Below are positions 9,220 to 15,889 of a stretch of 64,000 bases of DNA, piece after piece. Every line of letters starts with the position of its first letter. Position 1 is the first letter of the stretch. The DNA lies in contig DASRWT010000044.1 in assembly GCA_035654455.1 (NCBI GenBank), positions 10,926 to 74,925 of the forward strand. The letters are read 5' to 3'. This stretch comes from Candidatus Nitrosocosmicus sp. (GTDB lineage Bacteria > Methylomirabilota > Methylomirabilia > Rokubacteriales > CSP1-6). The position numbers were made by a program, and so were the translations under genes. The notes beneath the pieces were generated by a model. That model did no database searches, had not been told where the DNA came from, and saw only the letters and a list, made by a program, of their open reading frames with translations.

Positions 9220-10629
9220 TTACCCTCGCGCGATGGGCACCGCCAGCGGAGAAGCGAGTGTCACCTCGAGGATACGGCGCGTGTCCTCGGTGACCGGCGC
9301 CGCGCGGCCTCGGCGGAGCCCCGCCACCCAGATGATCTCGCCGTCGGCCTCGAGGAGCGGGATGCGCGACCGCTCCCAGCGCGGCACGCCCGCGTCGATG
9401 AGAAAGGTCTTGAGCCGCCGCTCTCCCGGCCCTCCCCACGGCAGGAACCGGTCGCCGGCGCGCCGCGCCCGCACGGTGAGCCGCGCGGGAACGCGATCGG
9501 CATCGAACTCGGCGTGCGCGGGATCCCGCGCCGGCGCCCAGCCCGCGGGACGGAGGAAGCAGCGCGCGGACAGCCGCGCGCCCAGCTCGGGCAGCGCCAT
9601 CTCGCCCGGCACCTGCCAGACGCGCTCGCGCAGGTCGTCAGGGGGGACGCCCCCCACTCGCACCCACGGCCCGCTGCGCTCGCAGCGCACGCGCCCGAGC
9701 CGCGCCGCGCGCGGCCGGCCCCCGTCGAGCAGGCGGCGCAGGGCGCGCTCGCCCGCCGCCCGCTGCGCGCCGCCGCCGCCGAGGCCCGCCGCCGCCGCGC
9801 GCAGAACCTCGGCGGCGAGCTCGCCGGGCAGGCGCTCGAGCTCCCGCGCCGGCAACACGACGGCGCCGGACGCGGCGCGGCCGATCGCCACCGCGATCGC
9901 GCGCGCCGCCGTCTCCAGCGCCGCCTCCGCCGCGCGCGCCCGCTCGGCGCCGCGCGTCAGCCACTCCACCGCGTCCGACTCCCAGCGCGCCACCAGGAAC
10001 GGCAGCACGTCGTGGCGGATCCGGTTGCGCGTGAACCGGGGATCGGCATTGGTGGCGTCCTCTCGCCAGCCGATCCCGCGGGCGAGCAGGTGCGCCTCGA
10101 CGACGTGCCGGCGGGTCTCCAGCAGCGGCCGGATATAGGGCCCGCGCACGGGCGCGATGCCGCCGAGCCCGCGCGGGCCGGCCCCGTCGAGCAGCCGCAT
10201 GACCACGGTCTCCGCCTGATCGTCGGCGGTGTGCCCGGTGGCCACGCAGGCGGCGCCGGCGGCGGTCGCCGCGCGCCGGAAGGCCGCATAGCGCGCGCGG
10301 CGCGCCGCCGCCTCGAGCCCGTCCCAGGCTCCGCCCGCCGTCGGCCGCGCGATCTCCACCCGCTCGACGCGGAGCGGAATGTTCCAGGCGCGGCAGAGGT
10401 CCGTCACGAAGGCGGCGTCCGTCGCCGACTCGGGGCGAAGACCATGATCGACGTGGACGGCGTGCAGGGTGAGGTCCAGCGCGGGCGCGAGCGCGCGGAG
10501 GGTGTCGAGGAGCGCGACGGAGTCGGCGCCGCCGGATACCGACGCCAAGACGACTTCGCCGCCGCGGAGCATCCCGTGGCGGCGAATGGTGGCGAGACAG
10601 CGAGCGGGCAGGCTAGTGGCGGTGGTCAC
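9220..10629 (-). CDS. tilS: tRNA(Ile)-lysidine synthetase TilS
   Basis: PP-loop SVSGGADS preceded by LATIRRHGML. I chose the GTG at 10629 (the alternative is ATG at 10572). The upstream part of ORF 9220..10896 overlaps the moaDE frame. Confidence 0.8.
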   Translation of the reverse strand: MTTATSLPARCLATIRRHGMLRGGEVVLASVSGGADSVALLDTLRALAPALDLTLHAVHVDHGLRPESATDAAFVTDLCRAWNIPLRVERVEIARPTAGGAWDGLEAAARRARYAAFRRAATAAGAACVATGHTADDQAETVVMRLLDGAGPRGLGGIAPVRGPYIRPLLETRRHVVEAHLLARGIGWREDATNADPRFTRNRIRHDVLPFLVARWESDAVEWLTRGAERARAAEAALETAARAIAVAIGRAASGAVVLPARELERLPGELAAEVLRAAAAGLGGGGAQRAAGERALRRLLDGGRPRAARLGRVRCERSGPWVRVGGVPPDDLRERVWQVPGEMALPELGARLSARCFLRPAGWAPARDPAHAEFDADRVPARLTVRARRAGDRFLPWGGPGERRLKTFLIDAGVPRWERSRIPLLEADGEIIWVAGLRRGRAAPVTEDTRRILEVTLASPLAVPIARG

Positions 10630-11296
10630 ATTCCGACTGCAGCCCCACCCAGACCTCGCCGTCCTCGAAGAACTCCTTCTTCCAGATCGGCACCGTCTCC
10701 TTGAGGGTGTCGATGGCGAAGCGGCAGGCGTCGAAGCCCTCGCCCCGGTGGGCGGTGGACACCGCGATGAGCACGCTCGACTCGCCGATCTCGAGCCGTC
10801 CCACGCGATGGACGAGGGCCAGCCGCCGGATGCCGGGGTATCGCTGGCGCGCCGCCGCCGCGATCTCCCGCATCTTGGCCACCGCCATCGGCGCATGGGC
10901 CTCGTACTCGAGGAACTTCACCCGGCGCCCGCCGGTCTGGTCGCGCACCACGCCCGAAAAGAGCACCACCGCGCCCGCGCCCGGATCCTCCACCGCGGCG
11001 ACCAGGGCCTTCTCGGAGAGCGGCGCCGCCACCAGGTCCACCAGATCGTCGGATCCGCCGCTCACGGGCGGAAAGAGGCAGAGCTCCTCCCCCGGACGGA
11101 GGGAACGCTCGGGCCCGACATAGTCATTGCCCACCGCGAACAACGTGAAAGGGCGGTACGCCGAGAGGGAGGGGAACCGGCTCGTCACCGCCTCCCATGC
11201 CGCCTCGACCGTACCGCCCTCGGGAAGATCCAGCTCGACGCGGTCGCGCCCGGCGGCCTCACGGTAGCGGGCGAACAACCGCACCTGCACCTTCAT
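10613..11296 (-). CDS. fused MoaD-MoaE molybdopterin synthase (sulfur carrier + catalytic subunit)
   Basis: N-terminal ThiS/MoaD fold ending in FPPVSGG, directly continued by a MoaE-like domain (VVLFSGVVRD...FLEYEAH...PIWKKE). Confidence 0.85.
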   Translation of the reverse strand: MKVQVRLFARYREAAGRDRVELDLPEGGTVEAAWEAVTSRFPSLSAYRPFTLFAVGNDYVGPERSLRPGEELCLFPPVSGGSDDLVDLVAAPLSEKALVAAVEDPGAGAVVLFSGVVRDQTGGRRVKFLEYEAHAPMAVAKMREIAAAARQRYPGIRRLALVHRVGRLEIGESSVLIAVSTAHRGEGFDACRFAIDTLKETVPIWKKEFFEDGEVWVGLQSECDHRH

Positions 11297-11688: not shown

Positions 11689-11697
11689 ATTATATCA
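11689..11697 (-). promoter_or_regulatory. candidate extended -10 promoter (TGATATAAT) for the IscA/ErpA-type gene
   Basis: Reverse strand reads TGA TATAAT; the TGA is the stop codon of the SDR gene. No good -35 element. Confidence 0.35.
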
Positions 11698-11720
11698 GAC
11701 CCGCCGAGCGGCGGGTCTGA
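11695..11720 (-). terminator. 11-bp GC-rich hairpin starting at the SDR stop codon (possible operon-end terminator)
   Basis: TCAGACCCGCC-GAGC-GGCGGGTCTGA is a perfect inverted repeat. It is followed on the reverse strand by A/U-rich UAUAAU, not a clean U-tract. Confidence 0.35.
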
Positions 11721-12441
11721 GCACCCCCCGGGCGGGCATCAGGGTCATTTCTTCCAGCGCCGCATTGGGATCCAGGGTCGCCATGAAGAGGGCGGCGTCG
11801 GCCACCTGGCCCGGGCTGATCATGAGCGCCCGGTCGGGGGCGCCGGGGATACCGTCCCAGAGCGGGGTGTCCACCGCCCCCGCGGAGAGCACGCCCACGC
11901 GCACGCCGGTCCCGCGCAGCTCCTCGGTGAGGACACGCCCCAGCCCGAGCAGGCCATACTTGGAGGCGGTATAGGCGGCGCTGCCGGGGAGGGTCCGGCT
12001 GGTGACCATGGAGCCGACCAGGATCAGGGTCCCCCGGCCCTGGGCGACCATGGCGGGCAGGACGGCGCGGCAGCAGAGATACGCGCCCCGCAGGTTCACC
12101 GCCATCATCTCGTCCCAGTCGGCGGGCCGGCTCTCGCTCACCGGGGCGAAAACCGCCACCCCCGCCGCCGCCACCAGCACGTCCACGCGCTCGAGCTCCG
12201 CCCGGGTCCGCGCCACCAGCGCGGCCACCGCCGGCTCCTGGCGCACGTCGGTGGGGACGGCCAGCGCCCGCCCTCCGGCGGCCTCGATCCCCGCCACCAC
12301 GCTGCCGAGCTGCCGCGTCGAGCGCGCGGCCAGCGCCACCGCCGCCCCCTCGCGCGCGAAGGCCTCGGCCACCGCCCGGCCGATGCCGCGCCCCGCGCCG
12401 GTGACGAGGGCGACCTGGCCGGCCAGGCGCTTGTCGCTCAC
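11695..12441 (-). CDS. short-chain dehydrogenase/reductase (candidate sepiapterin-reductase-like step)
   Basis: GTG start overlapping the folE stop (GTGA). TGAGRGIG cofactor motif and YTASK catalytic motif. Confidence 0.85.
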
Positions 12442-13016
12442 GGCATGAGCCCGCCGCGCGACTTGATCAGCTCCATGAACTCCGCCCGCGTCTCCGGCCG
12501 GTCGCGGAAGGCGCCCAGCATGGCCGAGGTCACCGCCTTGGAGTTCTGCTTCTCCACTCCGCGCATGAGCATGCAGAGGTGCAGCCCCTCGACCACCACC
12601 GCCACCCCGCGCGGCTGCAGCACGTCGTTGATGGTGTGCGCGATCTGGGTGGTGAGCCGCTCCTGCACCTGCAGGCGCCGGCTGTACATCTCCACCAGCC
12701 GCGGGATCTTGGACAGCCCCACGATCTTCCGCGACGGCATGTAGGCGATATGCGCCTTGCCGAAGAAGGGAAGCATGTGGTGCTCGCACAGCGAGAAGTA
12801 GTCGATGTCCTTCACCACCACCATCTCGTCGTACTCCTCGGTGAAGAGCGCCGAGTTCAGCACCTCCTCCACGTTCTGGTGATAGCCCGAGGTCAGGTAC
12901 TCGTAGGCCTTGGCCACCCGGGCCGGCGTCCGCTCCAGGCCCTCGCGGCTCGGATCCTCGCCGAGCTCCTTCAGGAGATCGCGGATCAGGCGCTCGATCG
13001 CTTTCAGGTCGCTCAC
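12438..13016 (-). CDS. folE: GTP cyclohydrolase I (FolE type 1)
   Basis: 192 aa; [17 protein letters not shown] and [15 protein letters not shown] motifs. GTG start overlaps the upstream stop (GTGA). Confidence 0.9.
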
Positions 13017-13438
13017 CGGGGGCTCCTTGATGCCTCGCCGCAGTATTCGAACGAGTTGTTGGCGGTCTCGACCACCGCCACCCGCTCCAGGCTCCCGGCC
13101 GGCAGCGCGTCCGCCAGCCAGTGGTAGAACGCGCGGGCCAGGTTCTCGCCGGTGGTGATCACGCCCTCGAGCTCGGGCACCGCGCCGGAGAGATCGTAGT
13201 GGTCGACGCGCTCGAGGAGCACGCGGCGCACGGTGGCGTCCAGCGCCCCGAGGTCGGCGGCCATACCGGTGACGGGGTCGAGGGCGCCCGCCAGCGTCAC
13301 CTCCACCACGTAGTTGTGGCCGTGCGGGCGGTAGCACTGGCCGTACACGCGCTCGTTCTCGGCCGCCGACAGGGCCGCGCTGGCGAGCCGGTGCCCGGCG
13401 CTGAAATGATAGGCGCGCGTGAGCCGGAAACCGCTCAT
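13013..13438 (-). CDS. 6-pyruvoyl-tetrahydropterin / 6-carboxy-tetrahydropterin synthase family (PTPS/QueD), Cys-containing paralog
   Basis: 141 aa; [15 protein letters not shown] (CxxxHGH) and VDHYDL (Asp-His dyad). Confidence 0.9.
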
Positions 13439-13860
13439 GGCCCGAAGTACTCCACGTGGAAGGTGGGGTCCTCCCACAGGCGCAGGCGATGGAGCCGATC
13501 GCCGCCGAGCTTGGGGACGAGCAGCTCCCAGAGCGCACGGACGAGGTTCTCGGTGGTGGGGATCAGCCCTCCCGCGAAGAGCGGGTCCGCGTTGAGATCG
13601 GCGTGATCGAAGCGCTGGATCACCGCGTCGCCCACCACCCGCTTGAGCTCGGCCAGATCCATCAACATGCCGGTGACGGGATCCACCGGGCCCGCCAGGG
13701 TCACCTCCAGCACGTAGTTGTGCCCGTGGGTGACGGTGAGGGAGCCGAAGGCGCGGGCGTTCTCCTCCGCGCTCCAGCGCGACTGCCAGTAGCGGTGGGC
13801 GGAGGAGAACGTGAACTTCCGCGTCACGTAGACGGGGCCGGGAGTCATGGGGGGGGTCAT
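13435..13860 (-). CDS. PTPS/QueD-family paralog lacking the catalytic Cys
   Basis: 141 aa; [16 protein letters not shown] (Leu where the CxxxHGH Cys sits) and FDHADL. ATGA overlaps on both sides. Confidence 0.85.
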
Positions 13861-14933
13861 GGGAGCACGCAATACGATCGTACCGTATCGAGGAAGCGCT
13901 CCGCGACCCTCTCCACGGCATAGTCCGCCACCCGGACCCGGGCCGCCCCGCCGAGCGCCCGCGCTCGCTCCGGGCTGCGCAGGAGGTCCGCCAGCGCATC
14001 CGCCAGCGCCGGCGGGGCCCGCGGCGGGACGAGCACGCCCGTTTCTCCCTCTCGCACCACCTCGGGGACGGCGGCGGCGCGGCACGCCACCACCGGCAGT
14101 CCCGCCGCCATCGCCTCGAGGAAGACGATGCCGAACCCTTCCTGGACCGAGGGCAGACAGAAGCAGTCCGCGTTCACGTACTCCTCCGCGAGCTCGTCCC
14201 AGGTGACGTCGCCCCGGAGGGCCACGGTGTCGCCGAGCCCGAGCTCCGCGTGCAGCCGGACGAGCGCGTCCCATTCCGGGCCCTTTCCCACCACGCGAAC
14301 CCGCAGCCCCGGAATGGCCGGCTTCAATCGTGCCGCGGCATGCAGGAGATCCGGGAAGCGCTTCCGCGCGTACGTCCGACCCACCGCGAGCACGGTGGGG
14401 CCGGGCCGCGGCCGGCGCGGCGCCGCGGCGAGACGAGCCCGCCACGCGGCGAGATCGATGCCCTCCGGGACCACGCCGATGCGGGCGGCGGGCACGCCGT
14501 AGACCTCGGCGGCCACCGCGGCCGAGTAGCGGCTCGGCACCACGACCGCGTCGGCGCGGGCGGTGTTGCGACGCTCCCAGCGCGCCTGCACCCCGAGCAG
14601 CGCCCTCACCAGGCCGCGCTCGTTGCGCAGCTCGTCCGCGATGATCCCCTTGAGCATGACCACGAAGGGCCGGCGGCCGCGACGGCGCGCCCAGAGGAAG
14701 CCGTCGAGATCGCACCCCACCACCAGGTCCGCTCCGCGGGGCGGCGACGCCGCCACCCCCGCATTGTAGAGCCAGCGGTCGAGCGTGTGAAAGCCGGTGC
14801 GGGTGCGAAGGGGGCGCAGCGCGACCGCGTGACCATGCGCCTCGAGGCCGGCGCGGAAGTTCGCGAGCGCGACGTAGGTGCCGCTGCCCTCGCGCGGATT
14901 GAGCGGCGTGGAGGTGAGGACCGCGATGCGCAG
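13857..14933 (-). CDS. GT4-family (Glycos_transf_1) glycosyltransferase; start codon non-canonical or uncertain
   Basis: C-terminal EGFGIVFLEAMAAGLPVV motif. The frame stays open upstream of the tracked GTG (14756) to a stop at 14961..14963 and encodes a typical GT4 N-terminus LRIAVLTSTPLNPREGSGTYV with no ATG/GTG/TTG. Confidence 0.7.
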   Translation of the reverse strand: MRIAVLTSTPLNPREGSGTYVALANFRAGLEAHGHAVALRPLRTRTGFHTLDRWLYNAGVAASPPRGADLVVGCDLDGFLWARRRGRRPFVVMLKGIIADELRNERGLVRALLGVQARWERRNTARADAVVVPSRYSAAVAAEVYGVPAARIGVVPEGIDLAAWRARLAAAPRRPRPGPTVLAVGRTYARKRFPDLLHAAARLKPAIPGLRVRVVGKGPEWDALVRLHAELGLGDTVALRGDVTWDELAEEYVNADCFCLPSVQEGFGIVFLEAMAAGLPVVACRAAAVPEVVREGETGVLVPPRAPPALADALADLLRSPERARALGGAARVRVADYAVERVAERFLDTVRSYCVLP

Positions 14934-14960: not shown

Positions 14961-15746
14961 CTAGCGGCCCTGGAAGCGGGGCGCGCGCTTCTCGAGGAAC
15001 GCGGAGGTGCCTTCCTTGTAGTCCTGACTGTTGAACGTCTCCAGGCCGAGCTCGGCGAGCTCGGCGCGATGCCGATCGGTGATGCCCTCGAAGATGGCGC
15101 GCACCTGGGTCTTGGTGCCGCGGATGGACAGCGGCGCATTGTTCGCGACCTTGCCGAGATACTCGCGGGTGTGCGCCTCGAGCTGGGCGGCGGGCACCAG
15201 GCGCTGGATGAAGCCGATGCGCAGCGCCTCGTCCGCCTCCACCGTGCGCGCCGAGAACAGGATGTCCTTGGCGTACGCGGGCCCCACCAGGTCCACCAGC
15301 TGATGGACGGGATCGAGCCCGTAGATGATGGACAGCCGCGCGGCGGGGATGCCGAACTTCGAACCCTCGGCGGCGAAGCGGAGGTCGCAGGCCATGGCCA
15401 GCGCCATGGCGCCGCCCATGCAGTAGCCGAAGATCATCGCCACCGTGGGCTTGGGGCAGTGGCGGAGTGAGCTATAGGCGAGCTCGGTCTGCTTGTTGTA
15501 GTGGAGCGCGGTCTCCGTGTCCTTGCGGTTTTCCTTGAACTCGGAGATGTCGGCGCCGGAGGCGAAGGCGTCCGTGCCCGCGCCGCGGATGACGATCGCC
15601 CGCACCGCGTCGTCCTTGGCCAGCGCCTGCATCTGCTCCCCGATCGCGGTCCACATCGCCAGGCTGACCGCATTGCGCATCTGCGGCCGGTTGATGGTGA
15701 CGGTGGCGATGCCATCCGCACGCTCGACCAGGATATGATCGCTCAT
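14961..15746 (-). CDS. enoyl-CoA hydratase/isomerase (crotonase family)
   Basis: TINRPQMRNA and GYCMGGAMALAMACD motifs. Confidence 0.9.
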   Translation of the reverse strand: MSDHILVERADGIATVTINRPQMRNAVSLAMWTAIGEQMQALAKDDAVRAIVIRGAGTDAFASGADISEFKENRKDTETALHYNKQTELAYSSLRHCPKPTVAMIFGYCMGGAMALAMACDLRFAAEGSKFGIPAARLSIIYGLDPVHQLVDLVGPAYAKDILFSARTVEADEALRIGFIQRLVPAAQLEAHTREYLGKVANNAPLSIRGTKTQVRAIFEGITDRHRAELAELGLETFNSQDYKEGTSAFLEKRAPRFQGR

Positions 15747-15813: not shown

Positions 15814-15889
15814 TGGTGGCGGCGGGAGGACTCGAACCTCCGACACGGGGCTTATGAGACCCCTGCTCTGCCACCTGAGCTACGCCGCC
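15814..15889 (-). tRNA. tRNA with CAU anticodon (elongator Met, or Ile2 that is read after lysidine modification)
   Basis: Reverse strand GGCGGCGTAGCTCAGGTGGCAGAGCAGGGGTCTCATAAGCCCCGTGTCGGAGGTTCGAGTCCTCCCGCCGCCACCA. It folds as a 7/4/5/5-bp cloverleaf with loop CTCATAA, a G1-C72 pair and encoded CCA. Confidence 0.9.

What the first reader, a model, noticed from the sequence alone, without database searches (positions are those of the whole stretch)
11695..14933. GT4 / PTPS / PTPS / FolE / SDR operon with four consecutive 4-nt overlaps: probable glycosylated tetrahydropterin pathway
Five minus-strand genes are chained by ATGA or GTGA start/stop overlaps at 13857..13860, 13435..13438, 13013..13016 and 12438..12441. 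Known chemistry: GTP cyclohydrolase I makes dihydroneopterin triphosphate, PTPS converts it to 6-pyruvoyl-tetrahydropterin, and an SDR (sepiapterin reductase) yields tetrahydrobiopterin. In cyanobacteria and Chlorobium a group-1 type glycosyltransferase (BGluT-like, from memory) attaches a sugar, giving biopterin glucoside, tepidopterin or limipterin. The set here contains exactly these four activities and lacks queC/queE, so it is not a queuosine operon. It also lacks folB/folK/folP, so it is not a folate operon. Pterin glycosides are poorly studied outside phototrophs, and the product and role here are unknown.
Basis: partly seen in the sequence, partly recalled or inferred. Interest (0 to 1): 0.65.

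Follow-up and report, generated by a model that had tools for sequence, protein, structure and literature searches.

The report
Split-PTPS tetrahydropterin operon with glycosyltransferase
A soil bacterium of the phylum Methylomirabilota (Rokubacteria) carries a tightly packed, phylum-wide conserved operon that most likely turns GTP into a tetrahydrobiopterin-like pterin using a two-gene "split" form of the key enzyme PTPS. The attached sugar-transferase gene may add a sugar to that pterin, but it is not related to the known pterin sugar-transferases.

Summary
Five minus-strand genes (GT4, PTPS-A, PTPS-B, FolE, SDR) are chained by four ATGA/GTGA overlaps at the stated coordinates. One correction: the GT begins at a CTG (14933), with no ATG, GTG or TTG before 14756.

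Both PTPS copies resemble mammalian BH4-type PTPS (E 1e-23 to 1e-27) far more than QueD (about 1e-8). PTPS-A has Leu in place of the catalytic Cys; PTPS-B keeps the Cys. Chloroflexota carry the same module as one fused two-domain PTPS, followed by FolE and a 40%-identical SDR. PTPS-A matches the N-domain of that protein and PTPS-B the C-domain. Among related two-domain PTPS proteins, the last domain keeps the Cys in 74 of 79 and the first domain in only 20 of 73. A BH4-type route (GTP to H2NTP to 6-pyruvoyl-H4-pterin to reduced pterin) is therefore well supported (about 0.7).

The glycoside step is weaker (about 0.4). The GT is not a BGluT/PgtA-family member. It shows no N-domain similarity to an Arthrospira PGT, and BGluT structures rank only 34-47 by fold. 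Its closest structural relatives are MshA, GlgM, SPS and BshA, and its acceptor domain is basic. The Chloroflexota module has no GT.

I rate this a new variant of a known kind, of moderate interest.

The parts
13857..14933 (-). GT4 retaining-type GT-B glycosyltransferase, 358 aa. It starts at CTG 14933-14931 and stops at TGA 13859-13857. The EX7E motif is EGFGIVFLE.
   Evidence: Pfam PF00534 at 1e-38 and PF13439. Full-length homologues of 351-367 aa start M/V-RIAVL at this position. The AF2 model has pLDDT 92 and needs residues 2-6 as the first strand. The best folds are MshA, GlgM, SPS and BshA.
13435..13860 (-). PTPS-A, 141 aa. It is a PTPS-fold protein with the Zn histidines, the Asp-His pair, the T-T-E stretch and the Glu all kept. 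The catalytic Cys is replaced by Leu ([10 protein letters not shown]).
   Evidence: Pfam PTPS at 1.8e-30. Best PDB hits are human and rat PTPS at 9e-24 and 4e-23, against QueD at about 1e-8. Leu is conserved in orthologues. It is 52% identical to the N-domain of Chloroflexota bimodular PTPS.
13013..13438 (-). PTPS-B, 141 aa. It is the catalytic PTPS copy, with Cys35, His16/39/41, Asp79-His80 and Glu124. The motif is [10 protein letters not shown], that is CxxxHGH through a 2-residue deletion relative to mammalian Cx5HGH.
   Evidence: Pfam PTPS at 6.6e-30. Rat PTPS 1b66 scores 2.4e-27, against QueD at 3e-8. It nests among C-terminal domains of two-domain PTPS proteins in a domain tree. It is 44-46% identical to the Chloroflexota C-domain.
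12438..13016 (-). FolE, GTP cyclohydrolase I, 192 aa, GTG start.
   Evidence: TIGR00063 at 262 bits (cut-off 181.6) and NF006825 at 277 bits. It is 60% identical to the FolE next to the Chloroflexia bimodular PTPS.
11695..12441 (-). Classical SDR, 248 aa (TGxxxGIG, YxxxK, Arg after strand 2). It is the candidate 6-pyruvoyl-tetrahydropterin / sepiapterin reductase.
   Evidence: Pfam adh_short at 1.4e-52. The best NCBIfam model is NF005672 (PRK07454) at 197 bits, below its cut-off of 234. It is 40% identical to the SDR of the Chloroflexia PTPS-FolE-SDR module, which has the same best model at 195 bits.
14961..15746 (-). Enoyl-CoA hydratase (crotonase), the constant upstream neighbour of the GT. 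Its TAG stop is in frame with the GT and lies 27 nt before the CTG. Its role in the pathway is unknown.
   Evidence: NF004781 at 321 bits, above its cut-off of 291. It is adjacent to the GT in L001 (read from the sequence; the gene table does not list it), L003, L005, L011, L012 and one further contig.
12438..12441 (-). GTGA overlap of the FolE stop and the SDR start.
13013..13016 (-). GTGA overlap of the PTPS-B stop and the FolE start.
13435..13438 (-). ATGA overlap of the PTPS-A stop and the PTPS-B start.
13857..13860 (-). ATGA overlap of the GT stop and the PTPS-A start.

Best explanation
This is an operon conserved across Methylomirabilota (Rokubacteria). Its core is PTPS-A, PTPS-B, FolE and the SDR, and this core makes a tetrahydrobiopterin-type pterin from GTP.

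Proposed route:
- FolE converts GTP to 7,8-dihydroneopterin triphosphate. This follows from family membership.
- PTPS-A and PTPS-B together form a heteromeric PTPS. This is inferred. PTPS-B supplies the catalytic Cys. PTPS-A has lost the Cys but keeps the Zn site, the Asp-His pair and the Thr-Thr-Glu pterin-binding stretch, so it would complete the inter-subunit active sites.
- This arrangement mirrors two-domain bacterial PTPS proteins, in which the first domain usually lacks the Cys. The product would be 6-pyruvoyl-tetrahydropterin.
- The SDR then reduces the side-chain keto groups to give a biopterin-like tetrahydropterin. This is inferred from the conserved PTPS-FolE-SDR linkage in two phyla.

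The GT4 enzyme is translationally coupled to PTPS-A. It probably transfers a sugar with retention (alpha linkage) onto the pterin side chain or onto a phosphorylated intermediate, giving a pterin glycoside. This last step is inferred from linkage only.

My odds: operon real and conserved 0.97; BH4-type pterin made by the core 0.7; the GT acts on that pterin 0.4.
For: - Overlaps and families are confirmed.
- Both PTPS copies hit rat and human PTPS at E 1e-23 to 1e-27 and QueD only at about 1e-8. Both score below the QueD model cut-off (60 against 89 bits).
- The Zn histidines, Asp-His and Glu are conserved in both copies. Leu replaces Cys in all PTPS-A orthologues. PTPS-A keeps TTE where PTPS-B has TGE.
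- A search of 1.8 billion representatives with PTPS-A returns mostly two- and three-domain PTPS proteins. The last domain has Cys in 74 of 79 and the first domain in 20 of 73.
- PTPS-B nests within the C-terminal domains in a domain tree (support 0.88-0.90).
- Chloroflexia bacterium SDU3-3 and soil Chloroflexota contigs have bimodular PTPS, then FolE, then an SDR in the same order.
- PTPS-A best matches the N-domain (52%, 128-130 bits, against 85-103 for the C-domain). PTPS-B best matches the C-domain.
- The SDRs are 40% identical and share the same best NCBIfam model. The FolE proteins are 60% identical.
- Published work: dual-domain PTPS-II orthologues are the BH4-forming enzymes of bacteria, and PTPS-II of Synechococcus PCC 7942 has PTPS activity (PMC5041015; the title of Kong 2006 as cited).
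- An SDR makes chemical sense only if a keto side chain (6-pyruvoyl) is produced.
- The GT-PTPS-A junction overlaps or abuts in all Methylomirabilota loci.
- Pterin glycosides made by GT-B enzymes are known (PMC4133829; PMC3546692).
Against: - PTPS-B has the CxxxHGH spacing that de Crecy-Lagard and co-workers use as the QueD (PTPS-I) signature, not Cx5HGH.
- The SDR is generic. No sepiapterin or pteridine reductase is among its 60 best PDB matches.
- The GT shows no acceptor-domain similarity to a characterised PGT. BGluT ranks low by sequence and by fold.
- The GT N-domain is basic (pI 10-11), whereas the PGT N-domain is acidic. Its nearest structures act on anionic small acceptors (inositol-P, Glc-1-P, Fru-6-P, malate).
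- The Chloroflexota module has no GT.
- Within Methylomirabilota the conserved block also includes plainly unrelated genes (crotonase, IscA, MoaD/E, TilS, HtrA). Adjacency there may reflect inherited synteny, effectively a single evolutionary event.
- No BH4-using enzyme was found.
Confidence: 0.5

Rival explanations
1. The core (PTPS-A/B, FolE, SDR) makes an unglycosylated BH4-like cofactor. The GT, together with the crotonase upstream, belongs to a different process. It would glycosylate a small anionic metabolite, as MshA, BshA, GlgM or sucrose-phosphate synthase do, or an envelope precursor. It merely shares the transcript.
For: - The Chloroflexota module lacks any GT.
- The closest folds are MshA (TM 0.84), GlgM, SPS, PglA and BshA.
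- The acceptor domain is basic.
- There is no similarity to the PGT N-domain.
- The crotonase, and in L011 and L012 a family III CoA-transferase, always precede the GT.
- The synteny block includes unrelated housekeeping genes.
Against: - The GT stop overlaps or abuts the PTPS-A start in every locus across 62-100% identical lineages.
- No deacetylase, ligase or other partner of a thiol or sugar pathway is nearby.
- There is precedent for pterin glycosides in bacteria that make BH4.
Confidence: 0.3
2. PTPS-B is a QueD-type 6-carboxy-tetrahydropterin synthase. FolE plus PTPS-B would then feed 7-deazaguanine (preQ0/queuosine) synthesis, and the rest of the pathway is encoded elsewhere.
For: - The CxxxHGH spacing in PTPS-B and its orthologues matches the PTPS-I signature.
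- NCBI names some homologues 6-carboxytetrahydropterin synthase.
- The tRNA-modification gene tilS lies downstream.
Against: - Both copies score below the QueD model cut-off (60 against 89 bits).
- Their E-values to rat and human PTPS are 15 to 19 orders of magnitude better than to E. coli-type QueD.
- PTPS-B nests among Cx5HGH C-domains.
- No queC/queE/queF is within 10 kb in any locus.
- No preQ1 riboswitch is present.
- An SDR has no substrate in that route.
Confidence: 0.08
3. The PTPS pair replaces dihydroneopterin aldolase (a PTPS-III-type bypass), so the cluster serves folate synthesis.
For: FolE is shared with folate synthesis, and PTPS paralogues are known to replace FolB (PMC5041015, PMC2229834).
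Against: - Neither copy has the ExxHGH signature. PTPS-A reads LTVTHGH and PTPS-B reads CYRPHGH.
- No folK, folP or folC is adjacent.
- No THF riboswitch is present.
- The SDR and the GT would be unexplained.
Confidence: 0.03

Closest known systems
Bacterial BH4 pathway with dual-domain PTPS-II (Synechococcus sp. PCC 7942; Kong et al. 2006, as cited in PMC5041015, PMC3546692 and PMC5227711)
   Same: The route is GTP cyclohydrolase I, a PTPS of the mammalian type, and a reductase. The PTPS consists of two PTPS modules, of which typically only the second keeps the catalytic Cys. The order Cys-less module then Cys module is the same.
   Different: Here the two modules are separate, translationally coupled genes. 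PTPS-B has a 2-residue shorter Cys loop (CxxxHGH). The host is a non-phototrophic soil phylum. I could not compare directly with the Synechococcus protein because no sequence was obtainable.
Chloroflexota PTPS::PTPS - FolE - SDR - Rieske cluster (Chloroflexia bacterium SDU3-3, Roseiflexaceae, soil contigs; uncharacterised)
   Same: Gene order is the same and the parts are orthologous. PTPS-A matches the N-domain at 52%, PTPS-B the C-domain at 44-46%, FolE is 60% identical and the SDR 40% identical with the same best NCBIfam model.
   Different: The PTPS is fused there. That cluster has no GT and no crotonase, and a Rieske ferredoxin follows the SDR.
Cyanobacterial pteridine glycosyltransferases (BGluT of Synechococcus PCC 7942, PDB 5ZE7/5ZES/5ZER; PsBGluT 9V0L; PgtA slr1166; Arthrospira CY-007/CY-049 PGTs)
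   Same: They share the GT-B fold, are about 355 residues long, and belong to a GT4-like retaining type. Their host pathway makes BH4.
   Different: There is no detectable N-domain similarity (BLASTP E 0.78). Only the C-domain matches, at E 6e-12 and rank 11-12. TM is 0.64-0.69 at ranks 34-47, against 0.84 for MshA. The N-domain charge is opposite. The Arthrospira PGT is not clustered with pterin genes on the side I could see.
QueD / PTPS-I (6-carboxy-tetrahydropterin synthase)
   Same: It shares the T-fold, the Zn histidines and the CxxxHGH spacing with PTPS-B, and it uses the same substrate, H2NTP.
   Different: Overall similarity is much lower (about 1e-8). Both copies fall below the family cut-off. 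There are no que genes nearby, and an SDR and a second Cys-less copy are present.
MshA / BshA / GlgM / sucrose-phosphate synthase (GT4 enzymes acting on small anionic acceptors)
   Same: They are the best structural and sequence neighbours of the GT. All have the EX7E motif and a basic acceptor domain.
   Different: Identity is only 22-25%. None of their pathway partners is present, and the GT is linked to pterin genes.
PTPS-IV / SCO6650-type orphan GTP-derived glycoside cluster (seen in earlier AI notes)
   Same: It also combines a Cys-less PTPS-fold protein with a GT4 and a GTP cyclohydrolase.
   Different: That cluster uses GTP cyclohydrolase II or III, a RibD_C reductase and a methyltransferase. 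PTPS-A does not hit 3D7J and lacks the FGPAQ signature.

Membership tests
PTPS-II (BH4-forming 6-pyruvoyl-tetrahydropterin synthase) | Signature CxxxxxHGH (PMC5041015) | tested here: not met
   PTPS-B reads C-YRP-HGH (CxxxHGH). The alignment to rat PTPS shows a 2-residue deletion in this loop. PTPS-A has Leu at the Cys position.
PTPS-II (BH4-forming 6-pyruvoyl-tetrahydropterin synthase) | Closest overall similarity to characterised PTPS, with the Zn His triad, Cys, Asp-His and Glu kept | tested here: met
   Rat 1b66 and human 3i2b are the top PDB hits for both copies, at 2.4e-27 and 1.8e-24 for PTPS-B and 4e-23 and 9.2e-24 for PTPS-A. PTPS-B has the full catalytic set HCHHDHE. PTPS-A has HLHHDHE.
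PTPS-II (BH4-forming 6-pyruvoyl-tetrahydropterin synthase) | Enzyme activity: H2NTP converted to 6-pyruvoyl-tetrahydropterin | not testable with these tools
   This needs an enzyme assay.
Dual-domain (bimodular) bacterial PTPS | Two PTPS modules in the order N (often Cys-less) then C (Cys), linked with FolE | tested here: met
   The modules are present as two overlapping genes rather than one chain. PTPS-A matches the N-domain and PTPS-B the C-domain reciprocally. Cys is kept in 20 of 73 first domains and 74 of 79 last domains. Synteny with FolE and the SDR is shown.
QueD / PTPS-I | CxxxHGH motif | tested here: met
   Met in PTPS-B only.
QueD / PTPS-I | Score above the TIGR03367 equivalog cut-off | tested here: not met
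   The scores are 60.2 and 60.5 bits against a cut-off of 89.25.
QueD / PTPS-I | Clustering or co-occurrence with queC/queE | tested here: inconclusive
   These genes are absent within about 10 kb in all loci.
PTPS-III (FolB bypass) | ExxHGH motif | tested here: not met
   The position holds T in PTPS-A and Y in PTPS-B.
PTPS-IV (SCO6650 type) | FGPAQ signature and similarity to 3D7J | tested here: not met
   The motif is absent from both sequences. 3D7J is not among the PDB hits at E <= 0.001.
Pteridine glycosyltransferase (BGluT/PgtA/PGT) | Homologous acceptor (N-terminal) domain | tested here: not met
   BLASTP against Arthrospira platensis PGT residues 1-214 gives E = 0.78. The phmmer match to BGluT 5ZER covers only residues 167-327.
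Pteridine glycosyltransferase (BGluT/PgtA/PGT) | BGluT as nearest characterised relative | tested here: not met
   BGluT ranks 11-12 by sequence (5.9e-12, against 8.6e-21 for 7QSG). It ranks 34-47 by Foldseek, with TM 0.64-0.69.
Pteridine glycosyltransferase (BGluT/PgtA/PGT) | Transfers a sugar to a tetrahydropterin | not testable with these tools
   This needs an enzyme assay. It remains possible by convergence.
GT4 retaining GT-B glycosyltransferases | PF00534 and PF13439 domains, EX7E motif, two Rossmann domains | tested here: met
   The EX7E motif is EGFGIVFLE. The AF2 model has pLDDT 92 and pTM 0.90 and a GT-B topology. Its top folds are all GT4 enzymes.
Sepiapterin reductase / pteridine reductase | Specific relatedness to characterised SR (mammalian, Chlorobium tepidum) or to PTR1/FolM/PruA | tested here: not met
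   None appears among the 60 best of 161 PDB sequences at E <= 1e-20. The best is the metagenomic SDR 3RKR. No SR model is among the 25 best NCBIfam hits.
Sepiapterin reductase / pteridine reductase | Conserved linkage with PTPS and FolE across phyla | tested here: met
   A 40%-identical SDR with the same best model (NF005672) follows PTPS-FolE in Chloroflexota.
GTP cyclohydrolase I (FolE) | Score above the equivalog cut-off; CEHH and HxC Zn motifs | tested here: met
   TIGR00063 scores 262 bits against a cut-off of 181.6. SLCEHH and LHLCM are present.

The most novel reading that the evidence does not exclude
Methylomirabilota, a non-phototrophic and uncultured soil phylum, make a previously undescribed pterin glycoside, possibly built on a phosphorylated pterin. 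The PTPS would be an obligate heteromer of a catalytic subunit and a Cys-less pseudo-enzyme subunit. The sugar would be added by a GT4 that evolved pterin glycosylation independently of the cyanobacterial BGluT/PgtA family. That GT4 is translated from a conserved CTG start.
Probability: 0.3. Interest if true: 0.6.

Novelty: new variant of a known kind. Interest (0 to 1): 0.45.

Why it matters
A 2026 review (PMC13259868) describes biopterin as rare in bacteria and archaea. Pterin glycosides are known essentially from cyanobacteria and green sulfur bacteria. A BH4-type module conserved across the abundant soil phylum Methylomirabilota, and present in fused form in Chloroflexota, would widen the known range of bacterial BH4 chemistry.

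It would also offer a natural split version of the dual-domain PTPS. That makes it possible to test why one module can lose its catalytic Cys.

The module points to an SDR clade (PRK07454-like) as a candidate bacterial sepiapterin reductase. If the GT acts on the pterin, it would be a second, independent origin of pteridine glycosyltransferases.

No paper in the searchable library links Rokubacteria or Methylomirabilis with biopterin.

Tried and rejected
No genome-wide search was possible for phhA, PCD, DHPR, NOS, queC/E/F/tgt, folB/K/P, a second folE or further COG0720 genes.
- A regex scan of the window for PCD, aromatic amino acid hydroxylase and PP-loop motifs found only TilS and one chance HHP.
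- A look-up of the window's own 299-aa GT call found nothing on record.
- Kong 2006, Lee 2010 and Phillips 2012 are not held. What I say about dual-domain bPTPS-II beyond the cited title and PMC5041015 rests on memory.
The locus was cut at the contig end, so only residues 1-214 were obtained.
- A named-genome survey of the cluster was therefore not possible. Taxonomy rests on NCBI names attached to a few homologues.
- Searches with the GT, and with a 60%-identical PTPS-A representative, stayed within Methylomirabilota because only the best 120 hits are listed.
- A FastTree of PTPS domains placed PTPS-A with single-domain proteins rather than with N-domains. Direct BLAST against Chloroflexota N- and C-domains shows the A-to-N and B-to-C correspondence. 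The deep branching of these short domains is unresolved.
- I considered read-through of the crotonase TAG into the GT, which is in frame in the window, and rejected it. In L005 the frames differ by one base.
- I considered the promoter-like site at 14791-14763, just upstream of GTG 14756, and set it aside. It lies in codons for the conserved FHT...YN motif and is not kept in L005.
- No Rfam element other than one tRNA was found.

Full report
OBSERVATION

The minus strand between 11695 and 14933 carries five consecutive genes:
- GT4 glycosyltransferase, 13857-14933
- PTPS-A, 13435-13860
- PTPS-B, 13013-13438
- FolE, 12438-13016
- an SDR, 11695-12441

The stop of each gene overlaps the start of the next by four bases.

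Pfam and NCBIfam confirm the families:
- The GT matches Glycos_transf_1 and Glyco_transf_4.
- Both small proteins match PTPS, and both score below the QueD cut-off.
- FolE scores above its equivalog cut-off.
- The last gene is a generic classical SDR.

One correction concerns the GT start. The codon at 14933 is CTG. With canonical starts the ORF would begin only at GTG 14756. That would remove the first strand-helix-strand of the Rossmann fold, which a confident AlphaFold model requires (pLDDT 92).

In relatives, 4-nt overlaps occur at about 9% of same-strand junctions outside the cluster. Four in a row is therefore far from a chance pattern.

ORGANISM AND CONSERVATION

- Homologues carry NCBI names from Candidatus Rokubacteria, Methylomirabilota and Ca. 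Methylomirabilis.
- The stretch is held by many soil and rhizosphere metagenomes.
- Contigs from four of these runs match the GT 5' region without any difference.
- In every Methylomirabilota locus I opened, the order is crotonase, GT, PTPS-A, PTPS-B, FolE, SDR, IscA/ErpA, MoaD/MoaE, TilS. This covers GT identities from 63% to 72%, in L001, L003/L004, L005/L006, L011, L012 (truncated after the second PTPS) and one contig without DNA.
- Most junctions inside the five-gene core overlap or abut.
- Because the conserved block also holds clearly unrelated genes, conservation inside the phylum is weak evidence of shared function by itself.

THE PTPS PAIR

The two copies are 43% identical without gaps.
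- PTPS-B has the full catalytic set of rat PTPS: three Zn histidines, Cys, Asp-His and Glu.
- PTPS-A has Leu at the Cys position but keeps everything else. This is conserved in orthologues.
- PTPS-A keeps the Thr-Thr-Glu stretch where PTPS-B has Thr-Gly-Glu. From memory of the rat structure, these residues and the Asp-His pair reach into a neighbouring subunit's active site. The two proteins therefore look complementary.

Against the PDB, both copies hit rat and human PTPS at 1e-23 to 1e-27 and E. coli-type QueD at about 1e-8. By the published signature scheme (PMC5041015), PTPS-B's C-x3-HGH would be read as QueD. The alignment shows this spacing arises from a two-residue deletion in an otherwise mammalian-type sequence, including the C-terminal ETxNNxxEYxGE.

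An exhaustive HMMER search with PTPS-A returned mainly proteins of 270-290 residues with two PTPS domains, and some with three. In the two-domain proteins the last domain keeps the Cys in 74 of 79 cases. The first domain keeps it in only 20 of 73. PTPS-B nests within the C-terminal domains in a domain tree.

CROSS-PHYLUM SYNTENY

One group of two-domain proteins belongs to Chloroflexota: Roseiflexaceae, Oscillochloris and Chloroflexia bacterium SDU3-3. In SDU3-3 and in soil contigs, the two-domain PTPS is followed directly by FolE, an SDR and a Rieske ferredoxin.
- PTPS-A matches the N-domain best: 52% identity and 128-130 bits, against 85-103 bits for the C-domain.
- PTPS-B matches the C-domain best.
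- FolE is 60% identical.
- The SDR is 40% identical over its full length.
- Both SDRs have the same best NCBIfam model, NF005672/PRK07454, at 197 and 195 bits.

The window's PTPS-A, PTPS-B, FolE and SDR are therefore the split form of a module conserved in a second phylum with different flanks. This is the strongest evidence that these four genes work together.

The literature identifies dual-domain PTPS-II as the enzyme responsible for BH4 synthesis in bacteria (PMC5041015; the title of Kong et al. 2006 as cited). An SDR makes chemical sense only downstream of a keto-bearing product such as 6-pyruvoyl-tetrahydropterin.

I put the BH4-type reading of the core at about 0.7.

THE SDR

It is a classical NADP-type SDR. 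Its best PDB match is a metagenomic SDR (3RKR). No sepiapterin or pteridine reductase appears among its 60 best matches. It is therefore not a member of a known sepiapterin reductase family. Its assignment rests on linkage.

THE GT

I obtained the first 214 residues of a characterised-family pteridine glycosyltransferase from Arthrospira platensis, by searching for primer sequences published in PMC4133829.
- BLASTP against the window's GT finds nothing (E 0.78).
- The PDB holds BGluT of Synechococcus PCC 7942. The GT matches it only in the donor-binding C-domain (5.9e-12). It ranks behind MshA-like, SPS, BshA, PimA and PimB' entries.
- By Foldseek, the BGluT structures rank 34-47 (TM 0.64-0.69). 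MshA (TM 0.84), GlgM, sucrose-phosphate synthase, PglA and BshA lead.
- The GT's N-domain is basic (pI 10-11 across the family). The PGT N-domain is acidic.
- The Chloroflexota module has no GT.

The GT is therefore not BGluT-like. If it glycosylates the pterin, it does so by convergence, and its acceptor may be anionic, for example a phosphorylated pterin.

Two things support a link to the pterin. The junction with PTPS-A is persistently overlapped or abutted. Pterin glycosides are also known in BH4-producing bacteria. I put this step at about 0.4.

RIVALS

- An unrelated GT sharing the transcript: 0.3.
- A QueD role for PTPS-B: 0.08.
- A FolB bypass: 0.03.

No que or fol genes lie within about 10 kb of the cluster in the relatives' loci, and no riboswitch lies near it.

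WHAT COULD NOT BE DONE

COMPARISON AND NOVELTY

The pathway type is known: GCH-I, PTPS-II, a reductase, and sometimes a glycosyltransferase. Four things are new here:
- The host phylum. No paper in the library links it with biopterin.
- The split PTPS with a conserved Cys-less partner.
- An SDR clade not previously tied to pterins.
- A GT4 unrelated to the known pteridine glycosyltransferases.

I classify it as a new variant of a known kind, of moderate interest.

Noticed in passing
window 14931-14933 (minus strand); L001 9932; L005 8937; L011 7971: The codon at the conserved GT start position (M/V-RIAVL in homologues) is CTG in the window and in three other lineages, and GTG in L003 and L012. 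About a third of the 120 best GT homologue clusters are called 40-70 residues short. The AF2 model needs those residues. This looks like conserved CTG initiation, in L005 only 1 nt after the crotonase stop.
   Followed up: partly
L003 11925-13529 and L004 2358-3962: The FolE of a 65%-related lineage is 534 aa. Its GTP_cyclohydroI domain is split by a Vint/LAGLIDADG insert, so FolE carries an intein there.
   Followed up: no
L007 8001-10585; L009/L010 8001-10861: Chloroflexota conserve bimodular PTPS, FolE, SDR and a Rieske ferredoxin, followed by a metallophosphatase, a DeoC-family aldolase and a nitroreductase. This is an uncharacterised pterin cluster in its own right.
   Followed up: partly
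proteins P0132, P0134, P0154, P0155, P0178, P0184, P0210, P0220 and others: Three-domain PTPS proteins of about 380-420 aa exist. Only the last domain regularly keeps the catalytic Cys.
   Followed up: no
window 15814-15889 (minus strand): A tRNA-Met (CAT) lies just upstream of the crotonase gene, at the head of the minus-strand gene row. A tRNA-like stretch sits at the same place in L001.
   Followed up: no
L011 5941-7916; L012 5606-7560; L003 8808-9176: A family III CoA-transferase overlaps the crotonase start by 4 nt upstream of the GT in two lineages. It is a 122-aa remnant in L003 and is absent from the window.
   Followed up: no
window 14791-14763 (minus strand): A promoter-like TTCACA-17-TACAAT lies inside the GT coding region, ending 7 nt before GTG 14756. 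It sits in codons of a conserved motif and is not kept in L005, so it is probably chance.
   Followed up: partly
window 10613-11296; L005 12492-13198: MoaD and MoaE are fused in the window, L001, L003 and L011, but are separate genes in L005/L006.
   Followed up: no
L001 9128-9915: The crotonase gene is present in L001 but was not listed as a called gene. Its sequence near 9800-9860 differs from the window in a way that suggests a frame disruption.
   Followed up: no
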